A stretch of 42,377 bases of DNA from a virus (taxonomy: Duplodnaviria; Caudoviricetes). Position numbers and translations under genes: made by a program. The notes beneath the pieces were generated by a model. That model had not been told where the DNA came from. It did no database searches and saw only the letters and a program-made list of their open reading frames with translations. Each line of letters opens with the position of its first letter. Positions within the stretch are counted from its first letter, which is position 1. Below are positions 1 through 42,300 of this stretch, piece by piece. The stretch is from positions 1-42,377 of the IMG/VR virus record IMGVR_UViG_3300037631_001783. One strand, 5' to 3'.

Positions 1-120
1 ATTTGATGAAGCTAAACAGGATTGGCTTTAGAAGTAAAACCATGACAGCACTGTGTGTGCCGGAAGTCTAAGTCCGATTTGCGTGGCCTTCCAGTCGTGC
101 AACATTCTGCTCCAGGTCTG
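1..120 (+). repeat. Terminal direct repeat, left copy (identical to 42258-42377); likely assembly circularisation overlap
   Basis: ATTTGATGAAGCT...CCAGGTCTG read at both ends; it cuts through ORFs. Confidence 0.97.
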
Positions 121-322
121 AGATTCGGGCGAATAGCTCTTGATCCCTAACCCTCAGATCAGCGTGGAGCACATCCATTCGTGACGCTAAATTATCCACA
201 GCCGAAGTTAGACGCACCAACGAATCCCTTCCATGCTGGTTCTCACGGTTGGCACCTTTGATACCAGAAGCGGCCACGCCTATTGACGCACCAGCAACAG
301 CAGCCCAGATTTCAACCACCAT
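68..322 (-). CDS. Small membrane-anchored coiled-coil protein, holin-like
   Basis: N-terminal hydrophobic segment plus heptad-like C-terminus; first gene of the minus-strand run leading to the endolysin across the junction. Confidence 0.5.
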   Translation of the reverse strand: MVVEIWAAVAGASIGVAASGIKGANRENQHGRDSLVRLTSAVDNLASRMDVLHADLRVRDQELFARISDLEQNVARLEGHANRT

Positions 323-345: not shown

Positions 346-618
346 ATGGCAGAAGAACAGGCAAAGCAGGAGCAAGAACAAGAGCCCGAATCAACGCCGT
401 TGGCGGATTTTGTAAAGCTAGCTGTTCTTACATGGTCGATTGTGATGCTCAGCCTTAACTACCTGGGTTATGTCAAAGCCATGGATCCGACTTTTCCAGC
501 CTCGTTGCTTACGGGAACAATGACGAGCTTTGGCGTCAACATTAAACGTGCTGGCAAGAAAAAAGATGAGCCGCCTACAATCGCAGAACAAACACCTACT
601 ACGTCTAAACCCAAATGA
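346..618 (+). CDS. Two-TM membrane protein, unknown function
   Basis: Hydrophobic segments FVKLAVLTWSIVMLSLNYL and FPASLLTGTMTSFGV; acidic N-terminus; ATGA coupling to next gene. Confidence 0.75.
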   Translation: MAEEQAKQEQEQEPESTPLADFVKLAVLTWSIVMLSLNYLGYVKAMDPTFPASLLTGTMTSFGVNIKRAGKKKDEPPTIAEQTPTTSKPK

Positions 619-1112
619 GACGTTTTCTCTTCTTATCTTGCCTAACGTTTTTTGCGGTAAGTCCTGCTTCGGCGGATATTACGCACGCTATTAAATCCTC
701 AATTTCGCTAACTGTTGATGGAGCAGCGTCCCAAGCAATTCGGCAACCGTCTTCGTTTTCAGTATCTGGCTCTAACGTCACTTTGGGTACTCCTCCTGTG
801 CTGGGGGCACTTACTTCCGGCACTGCTCTTGGGTACACTCCTGGTGCTTACAGTATTACTACTGCTGGCGACAGCTTTTCGTATTCAGAGTCATACATAG
901 AAGGCGATGACGTTCCAACCATACTTTCAACAACGGTTACTGCAGGGGTCGTGCCAGCACTACCTACATTCGGGAATACAACAACAACTGCAGGCGGTGT
1001 TGCTGGCACTTTAGCTGGAACGATTGCTACAGATGGTGCAATAGCAATTACAGCAGGGTCGGCTGGTACAACTGCAATTGGCCAGGTTATTCAGGAGCTA
1101 ACTATCAAGTGA
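615..1112 (+). CDS. Secreted Thr/Gly/Ser-rich protein, probably beta-rich
   Basis: Sec signal MRRFLFLSCLTFFAVSPASA|D; coupled overlaps on both sides. Confidence 0.8.
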   Translation: MRRFLFLSCLTFFAVSPASADITHAIKSSISLTVDGAASQAIRQPSSFSVSGSNVTLGTPPVLGALTSGTALGYTPGAYSITTAGDSFSYSESYIEGDDVPTILSTTVTAGVVPALPTFGNTTTTAGGVAGTLAGTIATDGAIAITAGSAGTTAIGQVIQELTIK

Positions 1113-1531
1113 GAATCCTGCTGCTGTTGCTTTTGGCTGCTCCAGCTGCAGCGATTCCTGTAGTGCCAAATTTTCAGCAAGGTGTTTTGTCTTCCACGAC
1201 ACGCACCAAAACAAAAGTAACTGAGGTCATCAACTCATATGAGTACAGGACAGGTTATGAGTACAGCGCAAGCGGGACTAATATTGCTCCAGTAGGCGGG
1301 GCTATTGCTCCAGCTAGTCTGACTACAACAACAAACACATTGAATGGTGTTTCTAGTCGTTGGACTGGTCTTGACCCTGCTAGTAAACCTGCTTGGAACA
1401 TCGTCAAACAAGGCGCATCGTTTCAGTTCGTTGAAACGCTACAAGGGCCAGGATTAACAAACCACACCTTGATTAATAGAGATACAGATATTGAATCTTT
1501 AACCGAGACGACAAGCACGTTTAGCCAATGA
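1109..1531 (+). CDS. Secreted Thr-rich protein (resembles a conserved cyanophage hypothetical family)
   Basis: GTG start; signal peptide MRILLLLLLAAPAAA|IPVVPNF. Confidence 0.8.
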   Translation: MRILLLLLLAAPAAAIPVVPNFQQGVLSSTTRTKTKVTEVINSYEYRTGYEYSASGTNIAPVGGAIAPASLTTTTNTLNGVSSRWTGLDPASKPAWNIVKQGASFQFVETLQGPGLTNHTLINRDTDIESLTETTSTFSQ

Positions 1532-2235
1532 AGCGAGTTATCGCAACGCTTTTGCTGCTAACCGCTCCAGCACAAGCACAAGTCTCAAGCACTGCCGCTC
1601 CAGTAGCAAACAGCTCAGGATCGGTTACGAATCAGGCTGTCCAGGTAGTACCCTCAAAACAATTTACAAACACTTACGGCGGTGGGATTAGCTGTCAAGG
1701 TGCAACCTTAAATATCAACCCTTTCATCAGTACGACAACAGGCTGGGCGCAACCATACGAAAGCCACTACAACGAACCTGTATATGACACGATTGATGTT
1801 GTTGGTGCGTTTGACCCTGAAGGAAATGCAATTCCAGATGGAAGACCAGATAATCCGGGAGATGTTCTTTTCTATAAACCTATACGGACAGGACAAAAAA
1901 CAAACCTATCGATTAACGGCGGCATTACAGCCACAATTTCGATACCGCTGGATCGTCATCACGTACGAACTTGTCGTAAAGCCGCTGAAAAACAGGTGGC
2001 ACTTTTAGACGCAACACTTGCTGATAAAAGGTTGAATTACGAAATAGCTAGGTTGCGAAACTGCGCTGACCTAATGAAAGAAGGCATCATGTTTCACCCC
2101 AAATCGCCTTACAGCCAAATCTGTGCTGATGTCGTCTTGGTTAATCCGCCAGGCGTCTTACCGCCCCACACGCATTCAATACCTACTTCTTCAAAGACCG
2201 CTGAAACTTCCGACGCTGCCAAGCAGACTCAATAG
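1528..2235 (+). CDS. Secreted Cys-containing protein (resembles a conserved cyanophage hypothetical family)
   Basis: Signal MKRVIATLLLLTAPAQA|Q; ANSSGSVTNQAVQ motif; four Cys; C-terminal helical region. Confidence 0.8.
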   Translation: MKRVIATLLLLTAPAQAQVSSTAAPVANSSGSVTNQAVQVVPSKQFTNTYGGGISCQGATLNINPFISTTTGWAQPYESHYNEPVYDTIDVVGAFDPEGNAIPDGRPDNPGDVLFYKPIRTGQKTNLSINGGITATISIPLDRHHVRTCRKAAEKQVALLDATLADKRLNYEIARLRNCADLMKEGIMFHPKSPYSQICADVVLVNPPGVLPPHTHSIPTSSKTAETSDAAKQTQ

Positions 2236-2941
2236 GAGTGGCCTTACCTGTCTTCTCCTTGATCTTCTTGATCGTCTTTTTGACAAGAGGCTTGATCACC
2301 TTCAGCAAAATATCGCCTAATGGCTTGGCTAAGACTGCCGCTGTTGTTGCGACAACCGCAATCGTTGCAGTCGTGACCACAACAGGCGAGCCAGGTAAAT
2401 GGTTGCCGAGAATCGCTGGTATGTCCAACGACTTGAACTGGGTTTTGCATTCTCCATCGACTCGCTTGTAACCAGTAATGACAGCAGTCTGAAGCTTATT
2501 TTTAGCGCCTATAGGTATTGCGTCTGGTGGCGGACACGGTAATTCTGTGTCTACATTTGGAACGCCAGGGGGTGGGGACCCCGCTGGTGAAGGGGACTGA
2601 GCCGGTTGTTTCGAGGCAGCCGGTTTTTCTTTTGGTGCCTCAATTGCTGGTGGCTTAGCTGATCCATACGTCAACGTTCCAGGCGTAAAGTCCAATGCGT
2701 CATACGACGGCATCGTTCCATCGCAGACAACAAAATTGCCCCTTGCATCGTTGTCGTAAGCCTTTTCGTTTCCAGGTTGAGTATTACGTGTTTCAACGCA
2801 GCCAGGTATTTCAGCAACCGGAAAACCCAGCATTAATGTGATCGGTGGCTCTTGCGGAATGCTTTGCGGCGGGATACCTCTCCAAGTTGGTATTTCTGGG
2901 ACGTACACACGCCCCACACCAATCTCAGGTATTTCAGGCAC
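2183..2941 (-). CDS. Pro-rich protein with C-terminal TM segment and basic tail
   Basis: GTG start; four Cys; Pro-rich linker; VVVTTATIAVVATTAAVLA followed by a Lys-rich helix. Confidence 0.78.
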   Translation of the reverse strand: MPEIPEIGVGRVYVPEIPTWRGIPPQSIPQEPPITLMLGFPVAEIPGCVETRNTQPGNEKAYDNDARGNFVVCDGTMPSYDALDFTPGTLTYGSAKPPAIEAPKEKPAASKQPAQSPSPAGSPPPGVPNVDTELPCPPPDAIPIGAKNKLQTAVITGYKRVDGECKTQFKSLDIPAILGNHLPGSPVVVTTATIAVVATTAAVLAKPLGDILLKVIKPLVKKTIKKIKEKTGKATPIESAWQRRKFQRSLKK

Positions 2942-2944
2942 CGA

Positions 2945-3181
2945 TCAGAACGGCAACTTAGGCGTTTCGATTGCTGGTCCTGTAGCTGATGGCAGCTCAG
3001 GCATCACGTCATCAACCGCTGGCACCATATCAAGCACCATTTCAGTCAGTTCGAGCTTTAGCTCACTGATATAAAGCTTTGTCAGCGATGGGATTCGGGT
3101 GTAAAGCGCAACCGTCCCAATCACCATGCCTGCTGACATCGTGAATGCTGCGACCGACATTACGTTGAAGACTTTTTGCAT
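2945..3181 (-). CDS. Single-TM membrane protein
   Basis: N-terminal hydrophobic helix; Pro-rich C-terminus MPELPSATGPAI. Confidence 0.75.
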   Translation of the reverse strand: MQKVFNVMSVAAFTMSAGMVIGTVALYTRIPSLTKLYISELKLELTEMVLDMVPAVDDVMPELPSATGPAIETPKLPF

Positions 3182-3196
3182 GATTAGATGCCAAAG

Positions 3197-3233
3197 AAAA
3201 AACCTCCCCTGCTGTGTGAGGCCAGGGAAGGTT
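3197..3233 (-). terminator. Rho-independent terminator after the OMP gene
   Basis: Minus strand AACCTTCCCTG-gcctcacacag-CAGGGGAGGTT followed by a T-run. Confidence 0.75.
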
Positions 3234-3257
3234 GCAGTTGCTTTGTTAAAGACTAGC

Positions 3258-3626
3258 TCAGAAGCCGTACTTCAGGCCCAGCTTGGAACCCCAGCTGAAG
3301 TCGTCGCCAGTTACGCCGCTGAGTTCTCCGTAAACGGAAACGTTTTCAGCAACAGCGACTGATCCACCGAATTTGGCAGCAAATTCAACTTCGTTTTCGG
3401 ATCCTTGCGGCATCAGGATGGCAGGACCACCTTGAACGAACCAGGAATAAGCGCCTTCGCCGCCTTCGTAGCCAACGTCAAGGTTCAACGCACCGCCCAA
3501 GTAATCGTCGCCAACAGTTGCGCCATTAAATTCTGGGTTCAGATATGGTCCAGGTCCAGCGAGGGCAGACGCTGGGGCCAATGCAACTGCCGTAGCGGCT
3601 GCACCAAGAACAAGAGACTTGATCAT
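3258..3626 (-). CDS. Small outer-membrane beta-barrel protein
   Basis: Signal peptide ending ALA|G; alternating amphipathic strands; C-terminal KLGLKYGF with terminal Phe (BAM signal pattern). Confidence 0.8.
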   Translation of the reverse strand: MIKSLVLGAAATAVALAPASALAGPGPYLNPEFNGATVGDDYLGGALNLDVGYEGGEGAYSWFVQGGPAILMPQGSENEVEFAAKFGGSVAVAENVSVYGELSGVTGDDFSWGSKLGLKYGF

Positions 3627-3697
3627 TTTTAGAAAGGGTTGAGTTTTCTTGAACCAGATTAACTGGCCTGGTCAATGGACAGTTAGTGATCTGCTCC

Positions 3698-3904
3698 TTA
3701 ATTCTCGTCACTACCAGGGAGCCATAGGTGATGCTTTTTGAAAAGCCCCGTGTATAGACCGCGTTGAGGATGATCAGCTTTGTTGCGACCTTCGTGCAAA
3801 TAGAGCATGGCCATCCATGTATTTCTATTATTTTGGGCCTCAATGTCAGTGGCTCCGTAAGAAGCGGACATCAGTGGATCGGGTTTAGTAGTCACGTCGC
3901 TCAT
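3698..3904 (-). CDS. Hypothetical protein
   Basis: ORF in the late operon; start uncertain (3904 or 3922). Confidence 0.6.
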   Translation of the reverse strand: MSDVTTKPDPLMSASYGATDIEAQNNRNTWMAMLYLHEGRNKADHPQRGLYTGLFKKHHLWLPGSDEN

Positions 3905-3992
3905 CTTCGTAAAGGTCATCATCGACTGGGTTGAAAGCTAAGACAAGGGTTGTCAGTACAACCCCAGCCAACACGCCAAAAGTAAAGGTCAT
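3885..3992 (-). CDS. 35-aa single-TM peptide MTFTFGVLAGVVLTTLVLAFNPVDDDLYEDERRDY (absent from ORF track)
   Basis: Manual translation; ATGA overlap with upstream stop; hydrophobic N-half, acidic C-half. Confidence 0.6.
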   Translation of the reverse strand: MTFTFGVLAGVVLTTLVLAFNPVDDDLYEDERRDY

Positions 3993-41265: not shown

Positions 41266-41410
41266 AAGGCTCCTCACTCTTAAATCGTATGTAATCACCT
41301 ATAGCGGGAAATAACCAGTCCTGCACTGGTAAACAAGCTTGCCAATTCACAGGTTGAACGCAGTTCATCACGACTGTCGTCCAGAACGCACTGATATATC
41401 CCCAATTCAT
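41201..41410 (-). CDS. Small Trp/Cys-containing protein in the lysis module
   Basis: ATGA coupling to endolysin stop. Confidence 0.6.
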   Translation of the reverse strand: MNWGYISAFWTTVVMNCVQPVNWQACLPVQDWLFPAIGDYIRFKSEEPYASEKRALRSINGMDARHSKP

Positions 41411-42126
41411 CGATCCACAAATACAGCCCAGCCGCTTGCTTCTCCTTCGATAGACCAACGCTGGTAAAACGCAGGACGCGACATCCTGATCAACTCACCA
41501 GATTTTGTGGTGTCATGGCCGCCATGATCCATATCTGGCTTGCCCATCGGATCCATTGCAATGAAGTCGTCTTTGTCGTAGCCAATGATTACGCTCCAAT
41601 GACCGCAACCCTCGCTATCGCACACTGCTGGTTTGCCCTTAGTCAGATCGCCTTTATGCAACCAGCCAACCATGATTGGTCTGCCAGCATCGATCTCAAT
41701 CTCAATGTCCTCAACCCTGGCATCTCTGCGAAACTGAGCGTCTAGGCCAAGTGATCTCAACGCAGAAACTTGAGCGTGGACTGCTGTCGTATCACCAAAC
41801 TTTCGGCGTATATGTCGATAAGCGTCTTGGCTTTTGATGCCATGGTGGAACGCCACAACCATTGCGGCTGCTGCGTCAAAACACTCTCTATAGCCATAAC
41901 CCGTGAGGCTATCTAGCTGGTTGTAGTACGGAACGCCATACACCTCTTGGTGGATGCCACTGGTCTTCCACATCTCAAACCACTCAGCTTCGTCGTCAAG
42001 TAGATCTTGATCGATGGAGCGCTCCAACTCCGCAATTGCAGCTAGCTGATGGGGATCGCCTTTTTTGAAGAACTGGAAAAACGGAAGGAGTGATAAGCCC
42101 ACAACGATTACGACCCAAAGCCACAT
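41407..42126 (-). CDS. Putative endolysin, C39-like cysteine peptidase with N-terminal hydrophobic anchor
   Basis: VPYYNQ..RECFDAAAAMV (Cys), GHWSVIIGYD (His), MDP (Asp). Confidence 0.75.
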   Translation of the reverse strand: MWLWVVIVVGLSLLPFFQFFKKGDPHQLAAIAELERSIDQDLLDDEAEWFEMWKTSGIHQEVYGVPYYNQLDSLTGYGYRECFDAAAAMVVAFHHGIKSQDAYRHIRRKFGDTTAVHAQVSALRSLGLDAQFRRDARVEDIEIEIDAGRPIMVGWLHKGDLTKGKPAVCDSEGCGHWSVIIGYDKDDFIAMDPMGKPDMDHGGHDTTKSGELIRMSRPAFYQRWSIEGEASGWAVFVDR

Positions 42127-42300
42127 TTACTTCTCAACGCGATCTCCAGGGAACAGTAGATCCTGGACATACTTACAAGCCACATCGTCCAACTGGTTGT
42201 CAGTTTGCTCGCTGATCTTGATCAAGCAGTCAAGTAGCAGTTGTTTTACGGCCTTTGATTTGATGAAGCTAAACAGGATTGGCTTTAGAAGTAAAACCAT
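42127..42300 (-). CDS. 57-aa lysis-module protein MVLLLKPILFSFIKSKAVKQLLLD...TDNQLDD (absent from ORF track)
   Basis: Manual translation; stop abuts endolysin ATG; TDN.LDD motif recalled from small phage holin-like proteins. Confidence 0.7.
   Translation of the reverse strand: MVLLLKPILFSFIKSKAVKQLLLDCLIKISEQTDNQLDDVACKYVQDLLFPGDRVEK

What the first reader, a model, noticed from the sequence alone, without database searches (positions are those of the whole stretch)
346..3626. Seven-gene cassette of envelope-targeted proteins: candidate phage-encoded envelope-spanning complex
Seen: between the tail fibre region and the lysis genes, every ORF has a signal peptide or TM segment. The plus arm has four translationally coupled genes (2-TM protein, then three Sec-secreted proteins of 165, 140 and 235 aa) and runs against the late operon. 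The converging minus arm encodes an OM beta-barrel, a 1-TM protein and a Pro-rich, Cys-containing protein with a C-terminal TM. Knowledge: tailed virions assemble in the cytoplasm, so Sec-exported proteins are not expected to be ordinary virion parts. From memory, similar hypothetical genes recur together in unrelated marine cyanophages; this needs verifying. Inference: the parts list (inner-membrane anchors, Pro-rich periplasmic spacer, secreted subunits, OM pore) resembles a miniature secretion, pilus or channel apparatus. It could remodel the infected-cell surface for superinfection exclusion, grazer evasion, nutrient uptake, or a non-canonical OM-lysis step.
Basis: partly seen in the sequence, partly recalled or inferred. 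Interest (0 to 1): 0.9.

Follow-up and report, generated by a model that had tools for sequence, protein, structure and literature searches.

The report
Cyanophage envelope-spanning lysis candidate cassette
This marine virus carries a block of genes for predicted exported and membrane proteins that it shares with unrelated viruses of ocean cyanobacteria, and these proteins likely build a tube across the host's envelope that would help the virus burst out, a step whose machinery is unidentified in these viruses.

Summary
The seven genes are real and the cassette is conserved in sipho-, myo- and T7-like cyanophages. Its core is four genes (E, A, C, D); B and F are near-core; the half-barrel OMP (G, DUF680) is separable. 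B, C and D have signal-peptide-like leaders family-wide (heuristic) and almost no lipobox. C folds as two 24-residue strands, weakly resembling beta-barrel tube subunits; D has an amphipathic hairpin plus a long helix. Here and in T7-like phages the block sits in the lysis slot. In hand-picked genomes it tends to replace endolysin: 10 of 12 cassette-less cyanophages carry one of two endolysin families, against 0 of 8 carriers; this phage and two others have both. Best reading (0.5): a spanin-unrelated lysis module spanning the envelope. Against: Syn5 lacks it yet lyses faster than carrier S-TIP37 on the same host, and no assembly is shown. Part of the cluster is in print since 2010 as 'hypothetical' (PMC3037559). 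This scan found it at least six times before on other DNA.

The parts
346..618 (+). A: 90-aa inner-membrane protein, DUF6450 / phrog_721 (T4-GC218, 'gp161'); holin-like topology inferred; core
615..1112 (+). B: 165-aa predicted Sec-exported beta protein, phrog_564 (T4-GC237), paralogue of C; not found in the T7-like minimal module
   Evidence: hhalign 74.5%, E 2.7e-5; relatives carry DUF6322
1109..1531 (+). C: 140-aa predicted Sec-exported protein, DUF6322 / phrog_650 (T4-GC236); model has two 24-residue, mostly polar strands, candidate soluble beta-tube subunit; core
1528..2235 (+). D: 235-aa predicted Sec-exported protein, phrog_848 ('gp165', T4-GC235); conserved N-terminal segment, amphipathic beta-hairpin, 42-residue helix, four invariant Cys; candidate outer-membrane ring; core
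2183..2941 (-). E: 252-aa Pro-rich acidic ectodomain, C-terminal TM, basic tail; phrog_570 ('gp164', T4-GC234); N-out/C-in anchor inferred, no signal peptide; core (short form phrog_9426 in podoviruses)
2945..3181 (-). F: 78-aa single-TM protein, phrog_568; the 'plasmid stability' label has no Pfam or NCBIfam support
3258..3626 (-). G: 122-aa cyanophage OMP-like half barrel, PF24653 / DUF680; accessory, linked in this clade
68..322 (-). X84: hydrophobic N-terminus plus coiled coil; lysis-slot gene beside the cassette
42127..42300 (-). Y57: small amphipathic protein, phrog_2738, also in the lysis slot of Syn5, P-SSP7, S-TIP37, P-SCSP2
41407..42126 (-). C39-peptidase endolysin (phrog_10051) with hydrophobic N-terminus; adjacent across the terminal repeat

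Best explanation
The block is a mobile gene module of marine picocyanobacterial phages that likely acts late as a lysis (host-exit) device unrelated to spanins, by building a predicted tube from inner to outer membrane. Inferred steps: B, C and D are exported by Sec; C (with its paralogue B) polymerises into a soluble beta-barrel tube, about 8 nm per ring by strand length; D inserts an amphipathic hairpin into the outer membrane as an oligomer, its disulfide-clamped helix facing the periplasm; E and F anchor the assembly in the inner membrane through Pro-rich stalks; A times or opens the inner-membrane step. The assembly would breach the outer membrane and, in phages without a recognisable endolysin, could be part of what replaces it. 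Shown: genes, conservation, position, distribution. Predicted: leaders, topologies, monomer folds. Untested: oligomers, contacts, function.
For: (1) Position: here A abuts X84-Y57-endolysin. In P-SSP7 and S-TIP37, E-A-C-D lies between tail fibres and small terminase with Y; in P-SCSP2 the same genes lie beside Y, between the large terminase and upstream late genes. In cassette-less P60 and S-CBP4 that slot holds an endolysin plus X. (2) Near-complementarity with endolysin: of 12 cyanophages lacking D (controls 79, 127), 10 match phrog_10051/C39 or phrog_181; 0 of 8 carriers do (5 tested for both families, 3 for one). ACG-2014f, picked for its endolysin, lacked D as predicted. In DSL-LC02 and DSL-LC03, which have both, they lie 4-6 kb apart. 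(3) Timing: the T4 late motif (recalled) precedes B in 46 of 118, A in 69 of 112 myovirus-like loci, background 61 of 3060. (4) PMC6139136 lists these cyanophages as spanin-less and allows that an N-out/C-in membrane protein plus an OMP could do the job (passages); E has an acidic N-side in 188 of 190 and a basic C-side in 190 of 190 long homologues. (5) C's best structural neighbours are tube or pore-stem subunits, all weak.
Against: Syn5 has no cassette and neither endolysin family, yet on WH8109 it lysed sooner (1 h vs 3 h), with larger burst (94 vs 11.5), than carrier S-TIP37 (PMC9381782 table passage). S-CRM01 also showed neither D nor phrog_10051. Cassette-less Syn5, P60 and S-PM2 are on the same spanin-less list as carriers. 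This phage, 58 of 80 close loci and DSL-LC02/03 have both cassette and endolysin. The genome set was hand-picked, is not phylogenetically independent, and only two endolysin families were tested. In myoviruses the block lies among metabolic genes and tRNAs, not beside lysis genes. No known lysis system uses a beta-tube (own knowledge). Fold matches are below significance (best E 0.0086, TM 0.23; Z 4.2). E has no signal peptide to export a 185-residue N-terminus.
Confidence: 0.5

Rival explanations
1. A secretion pore or surface fibre that remodels the infected cell (superinfection exclusion, aggregation, grazer avoidance), analogous to the curli system carried by pelagiphages; B and C would be the exported fibre or tube, D the pore.
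For: C also weakly matches spore-appendage fibres (Z 2.1-2.8). Cross-family phage transfer of an OM secretion system has precedent (PMC9599517 passages). Carrier S-TIP37 has the longer infection. Lytic phages of the same hosts lack the block.
Against: No CsgG, CsgA or secretin match; no ATPase or chaperone in the block; it does not explain the lysis-slot position or the endolysin pattern.
Confidence: 0.25
2. A lysis-delay or envelope-stabilising module that tethers the two membranes and prolongs infection.
For: Lysis-slot position; carrier S-TIP37 is slower and less virulent than Syn5.
Against: The clades differ in many genes; does not explain why carriers tend to lack endolysins; burst is smaller, not larger, in the carrier.
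Confidence: 0.12
3. A nutrient (phosphate) uptake channel.
For: G lies beside pstS in S-SKS1 and S-TIM5; DUF680 was linked to phosphate limitation and was lost in one host under replete conditions (PMC6224464 section 9).
Against: This concerns G only; G is in 21 of 76 myovirus-like D loci and absent from two carriers. No pstS match among the 40 window proteins scanned.
Confidence: 0.08
4. Virion (tail collar) proteins.
For: C's top fold matches are phage collar proteins; the block lies near tail genes.
Against: Conserved leaders; none of T4-GC 218, 219, 234-237, 414 is in the virion table of S-SM1, S-PM2 and Syn9 (non-detection is not absence); one module in three tail types.
Confidence: 0.05

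Closest known systems
Cyanomyovirus cluster of hypothetical proteins T4-GC 218, 219, 234, 235, 237 with a 'plasmid stability' gene (PMC3037559)
   Same: Same genes: A=218, E=234, D=235, C=236, B=237, F=414 by the Syn1 annotation; absent from S-PM2 in both the paper.
   Different: The passages seen give no function or envelope link. This copy is in a siphovirus, lacks GC219, includes G and abuts lysis genes.
Two-component spanins (lambda Rz/Rz1, T7 gp18.5/18.7)
   Same: Late, envelope-spanning parts list, lysis-locus position.
   Different: No lipoprotein (lipobox in 0 of 119 B, 1 of 157 C, 2 of 144 D); E is N-out; secreted subunits are beta-rich; four or more genes.
Pelagiphage curli / type VIII secretion module (PMC9599517)
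   Same: Phage-borne multi-gene envelope module moved between phage families in the ocean.
   Different: No sequence or fold match to CsgG, CsgF or CsgA; no clear host-chromosome homologue found.
Beta-barrel tube subunits (phi29 and Andhra lower collar, lysenin and PA-type pore stems, SpoIIIAG)
   Same: Long two-stranded hairpin in the C model.
   Different: Shape only, below significance; C's strands are mostly polar and come from its two termini.
DUF680 / PhCOG173 / PF24653 cyanophage OMP
   Same: G is a member (E 3.4e-33, over cut-off).
   Different: Here it is embedded in the cassette rather than beside pstS.

Membership tests
Two-component spanin | Outer-membrane lipoprotein (lipobox) o-spanin | tested here: not met
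   lipobox in 0/119 B, 1/157 C, 2/144 D leaders
Two-component spanin | N-in/C-out inner-membrane i-spanin with periplasmic coiled coil | tested here: inconclusive
   F has the inferred topology but a short Pro-rich tail; E is reversed; no spanin family hit
Two-component spanin | Complements an Rz/Rz1 lysis defect | not testable with these tools
   needs experiment
Holin (for A) | Match to a holin family; small TM protein in lysis locus | tested here: inconclusive
   only DUF6450 matched; size, charge and position fit
Curli / T8SS | CsgG pore and CsgA/B repeats by sequence | tested here: not met
   no Pfam or NCBIfam hit at permissive E, no PDB sequence hit
TolC / outer-membrane efflux protein (for D) | OEP repeat and alpha/beta barrel fold | tested here: inconclusive
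   three TolC-type rows at E 3.8-4.8; no Pfam OEP hit
Aerolysin-type or PA-type beta pore-former (for C) | Fold and lipid-facing stem | tested here: inconclusive
   Z 3.3-4.2, rmsd 5-6 A; strands weakly amphipathic
T4-GC 218/234-237 cluster | Homology and gene order B-C-D facing E-F | tested here: met
PF24653 Phage_OMP (for G) | Score above curated cut-off over full length | tested here: met
   114.9 bits vs 27

The most novel reading that the evidence does not exclude
A third kind of phage exit machine: a self-assembling beta-barrel conduit (C/B tube, D outer-membrane ring, E/F/A inner-membrane base) that crosses the cyanobacterial wall and lets most oceanic cyanophages lyse without spanins and often without a classical endolysin.
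Probability: 0.3. Interest if true: 0.92.

Novelty: categorically new. Interest (0 to 1): 0.72.

Why it matters
Cyanophage lysis releases a share of ocean primary production, yet these phages are listed as spanin-less (PMC6139136) and the carriers tested show neither of two common endolysin families. D matches 416 of 50,697 phage records, all named Synechococcus, Prochlorococcus, Cyanophage, Marine or uncultured. A four-gene minimal form in S-TIP37 and P-SSP7, with natural cassette-less phages on the same hosts, makes the question testable by one deletion. The class 'categorically new' refers to the system: no part matches a characterised machine. The gene cluster itself was noticed in 2010 without function.

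Tried and rejected
Complex prediction of 3 C + 3 D: no answer, score 0.00, controls not folded, job unlike the calibration; not used either way. D fold searches: nothing significant, only the helix aligned. Profile searches of D and C against PDB sequences: 0 and 1 irrelevant hit. ESM Atlas returned only the same viral families. BFVD search with C: significant rows were unnamed or cyanophage proteins. TolC-half idea for D, from a recalled motif: not supported beyond E about 4. 'Plasmid stability' label for F: no family support. Cellular homologues: 22 GTDB-collection loci from one degenerate pattern; the 7 read in detail sat among T7-like late genes, read as phage DNA in MAGs or SAGs; a weak test of absence. 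Promoter and terminator scans at chance level. One RNA run held 0.06 of the words; contigs only, no conclusion. S-TIP37 proteins not found by accession in supplements of PMC12695635, one PDF unreadable. Strict clade link rejected: SS120-1 carries C and D and S-CBP4 lacks them; their clade labels A and B are recalled. A weak C match in a 3048-aa S-PM2 frame (E 0.008) was treated as chance. PF20048 search in five non-carriers had no positive control and is not counted.

Full report
Setting. The window is a whole 42,377-nt virus record with a 120-nt terminal repeat. It has a siphovirus-type late operon on the minus strand, a family A polymerase and a primase-helicase. Homologues point to a marine picocyanobacterial host; the host is inferred.

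Observation. The seven ORFs, their overlaps and the convergent layout are as described. I call them A90, B165, C140, D235, E252, F78, G122. All have PHROG families of unknown function except F, labelled 'plasmid stability'. Pfam gives DUF6450 for A, DUF6322 for C and Phage_OMP for G. B and C are paralogues. A simple leader test passed in 119 of 119 B, 156 of 157 C and 144 of 144 D distinct leaders, against 272 of 2000 controls, with lipoboxes in 0, 1 and 2. This is a heuristic, not SignalP.

Distribution. D matches 416 of 50,697 phage records. The same seven-gene order occurs in Autographiviridae phage uvMED S37-C6; B-C-D facing E recurs in Syn1, S-SKS1 and S-TIM5. Among fetched loci with enough flank, 40 of 40 close relatives (of 80 fetched) hold all seven. 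In 76 myovirus-like loci (label by query; some contigs counted twice) B, C and E were in 76, F in 74, A in 65, G in 21. T7-like phages P-SSP7, S-TIP37 and P-SCSP2 keep only short E, A, C and D. So the core is four genes. D was absent from 12 cyanophages and one pelagiphage, with controls ringing; C was absent from the 12 of these 13 tested.

Structure. The C model (mean pLDDT 84.7) pairs two 24-residue terminal strands. Its nearest folds are phage collar tubes and pore stems, all weak (best E 0.0086; Z 4.2, rmsd 5.2 over 52 residues). The strands are mostly polar, which fits a soluble tube better than a lipid-facing one. The D model (pLDDT 79, pTM 0.47) has a hairpin whose second strand is strongly amphipathic across the family (faces 2.07 and -1.48), a 42-residue helix and four invariant cysteines. 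It has no significant fold match. E is acidic before and basic after its TM segment in 188 and 190 of 190 long homologues. G is described as a six-stranded half barrel modelled as a dimer (bioRxiv 10.64898/2026.10.24.761521, abstract and passages). Oligomers and contacts are not shown.

Context. Across the terminal repeat, A abuts X84, Y57 and a C39 endolysin. Y57 homologues flank the module in P-SSP7, S-TIP37 and P-SCSP2 and also occur in cassette-less Syn5. In cassette-less P60 and S-CBP4 the slot between tail fibre and small terminase holds an endolysin, an X-type gene and a small membrane protein; a homologue of that small protein lies about 200 nt from A in uvMED S37-C6. The cassette is therefore an addition to a lysis locus in sipho- and podoviruses, but not visibly so in myoviruses. 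There the T4 late motif (recalled) is enriched upstream of A, B and G.

Endolysin pattern. Of 12 cyanophages lacking D, 10 match phrog_10051/C39 or phrog_181: S-PM2, S-CBP4, P60, S-CBP42, P-SS2, S-CBS1, S-CBS2, S-EIVl, ACG-2014f and S-CBS4 (N-terminal module only). Syn5 and S-CRM01 do not (S-CRM01 tested for one family). ACG-2014f was chosen for its endolysin; without it the count is 9 of 11. Of 8 carriers none matched (five tested for both families, three for one; S-H68 is a partial genome). No record named 'Prochlorococcus' is among the 105 C39 matches, while 28 match D. Exceptions with both: this phage, 58 of 80 close loci, DSL-LC02 and DSL-LC03. The set is hand-picked, related genomes are not independent, and other hydrolase families were not tested.

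Literature. PMC3037559 (passages; supplement file 1 parts 3-4; its figure file was unreadable) reports the cluster in 15 of 16 cyanomyoviruses, without function; its virion table lists none of these clusters. PMC6139136 (passages) lists carriers and non-carriers alike as spanin-less. PMC6224464 (section 9) found DUF680 inactivated on passage in WH8102. PMC9381782 (passages) shows Syn5 faster and more virulent than S-TIP37 on one host. PMC9599517 (passages) is the precedent for a phage-borne secretion module. Searches listed no paper that assigns B-E an envelope or lysis role; the library omits most subscription papers, and bioRxiv supplements were closed.

Verdict. A real, conserved, probably late envelope module. 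I put lysis by a trans-envelope assembly at 0.5, a surface or secretion role at 0.25, lysis delay at 0.12, nutrient uptake at 0.08 and virion parts at 0.05. My first reading was a secretion-type channel; earlier scan notes moved me to test lysis. The slot comparison and the endolysin pattern were tested here; those notes are not counted as support.

Noticed in passing
window 42127-42300 (-); L270:3666-3836; L266:6422-6577; L267:3907-4068: Y57 (phrog_2738), a 51-57 aa amphipathic protein in the lysis slot of sipho- and T7-like cyanophages with or without the cassette; not among P-SSP7's listed annotations. Candidate holin or outer-membrane disruptor.
   Followed up: partly
L003:8408-8980 (Syn1, T4-GC219): Extra gene between E and F in myovirus-like loci: N-terminal TM plus a Gly/Ala-rich hydrophobic C-terminal segment resembling a glycine zipper (resemblance recalled); 61 ORFs clustered; no Pfam hit.
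   Followed up: partly
L267:4524-5510 (S-TIP37): RefSeq omits gene A and starts D downstream of its leader; in myoviruses D is often called with an upstream start that hides the signal peptide.
   Followed up: partly
L285:7609-8576 (S-CBP4, KC310804): The C39 endolysin is split over two frames and unannotated in this record; sequencing error or real frameshift not resolved.
   Followed up: no
L020:6422-6646 and L019:6499-6660: Many close relatives carry an unrelated small ORF inserted between E and F; at least two families.
   Followed up: no
L248 (188-kb contig of a Nonlabens isolate assembly); L250: Bacterial assemblies hold contigs of cyanomyovirus size with the cassette; likely phage DNA co-assembled.
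   Followed up: no
window 346-618 versus L006-L084: A is about 50% identical in many relatives whose flanking genes are 85-98% identical, suggesting allele exchange at A; G behaves similarly.
   Followed up: no
window 3627-3988: Several short overlapping ORFs between G and the tail assembly gene were not assigned.
   Followed up: no
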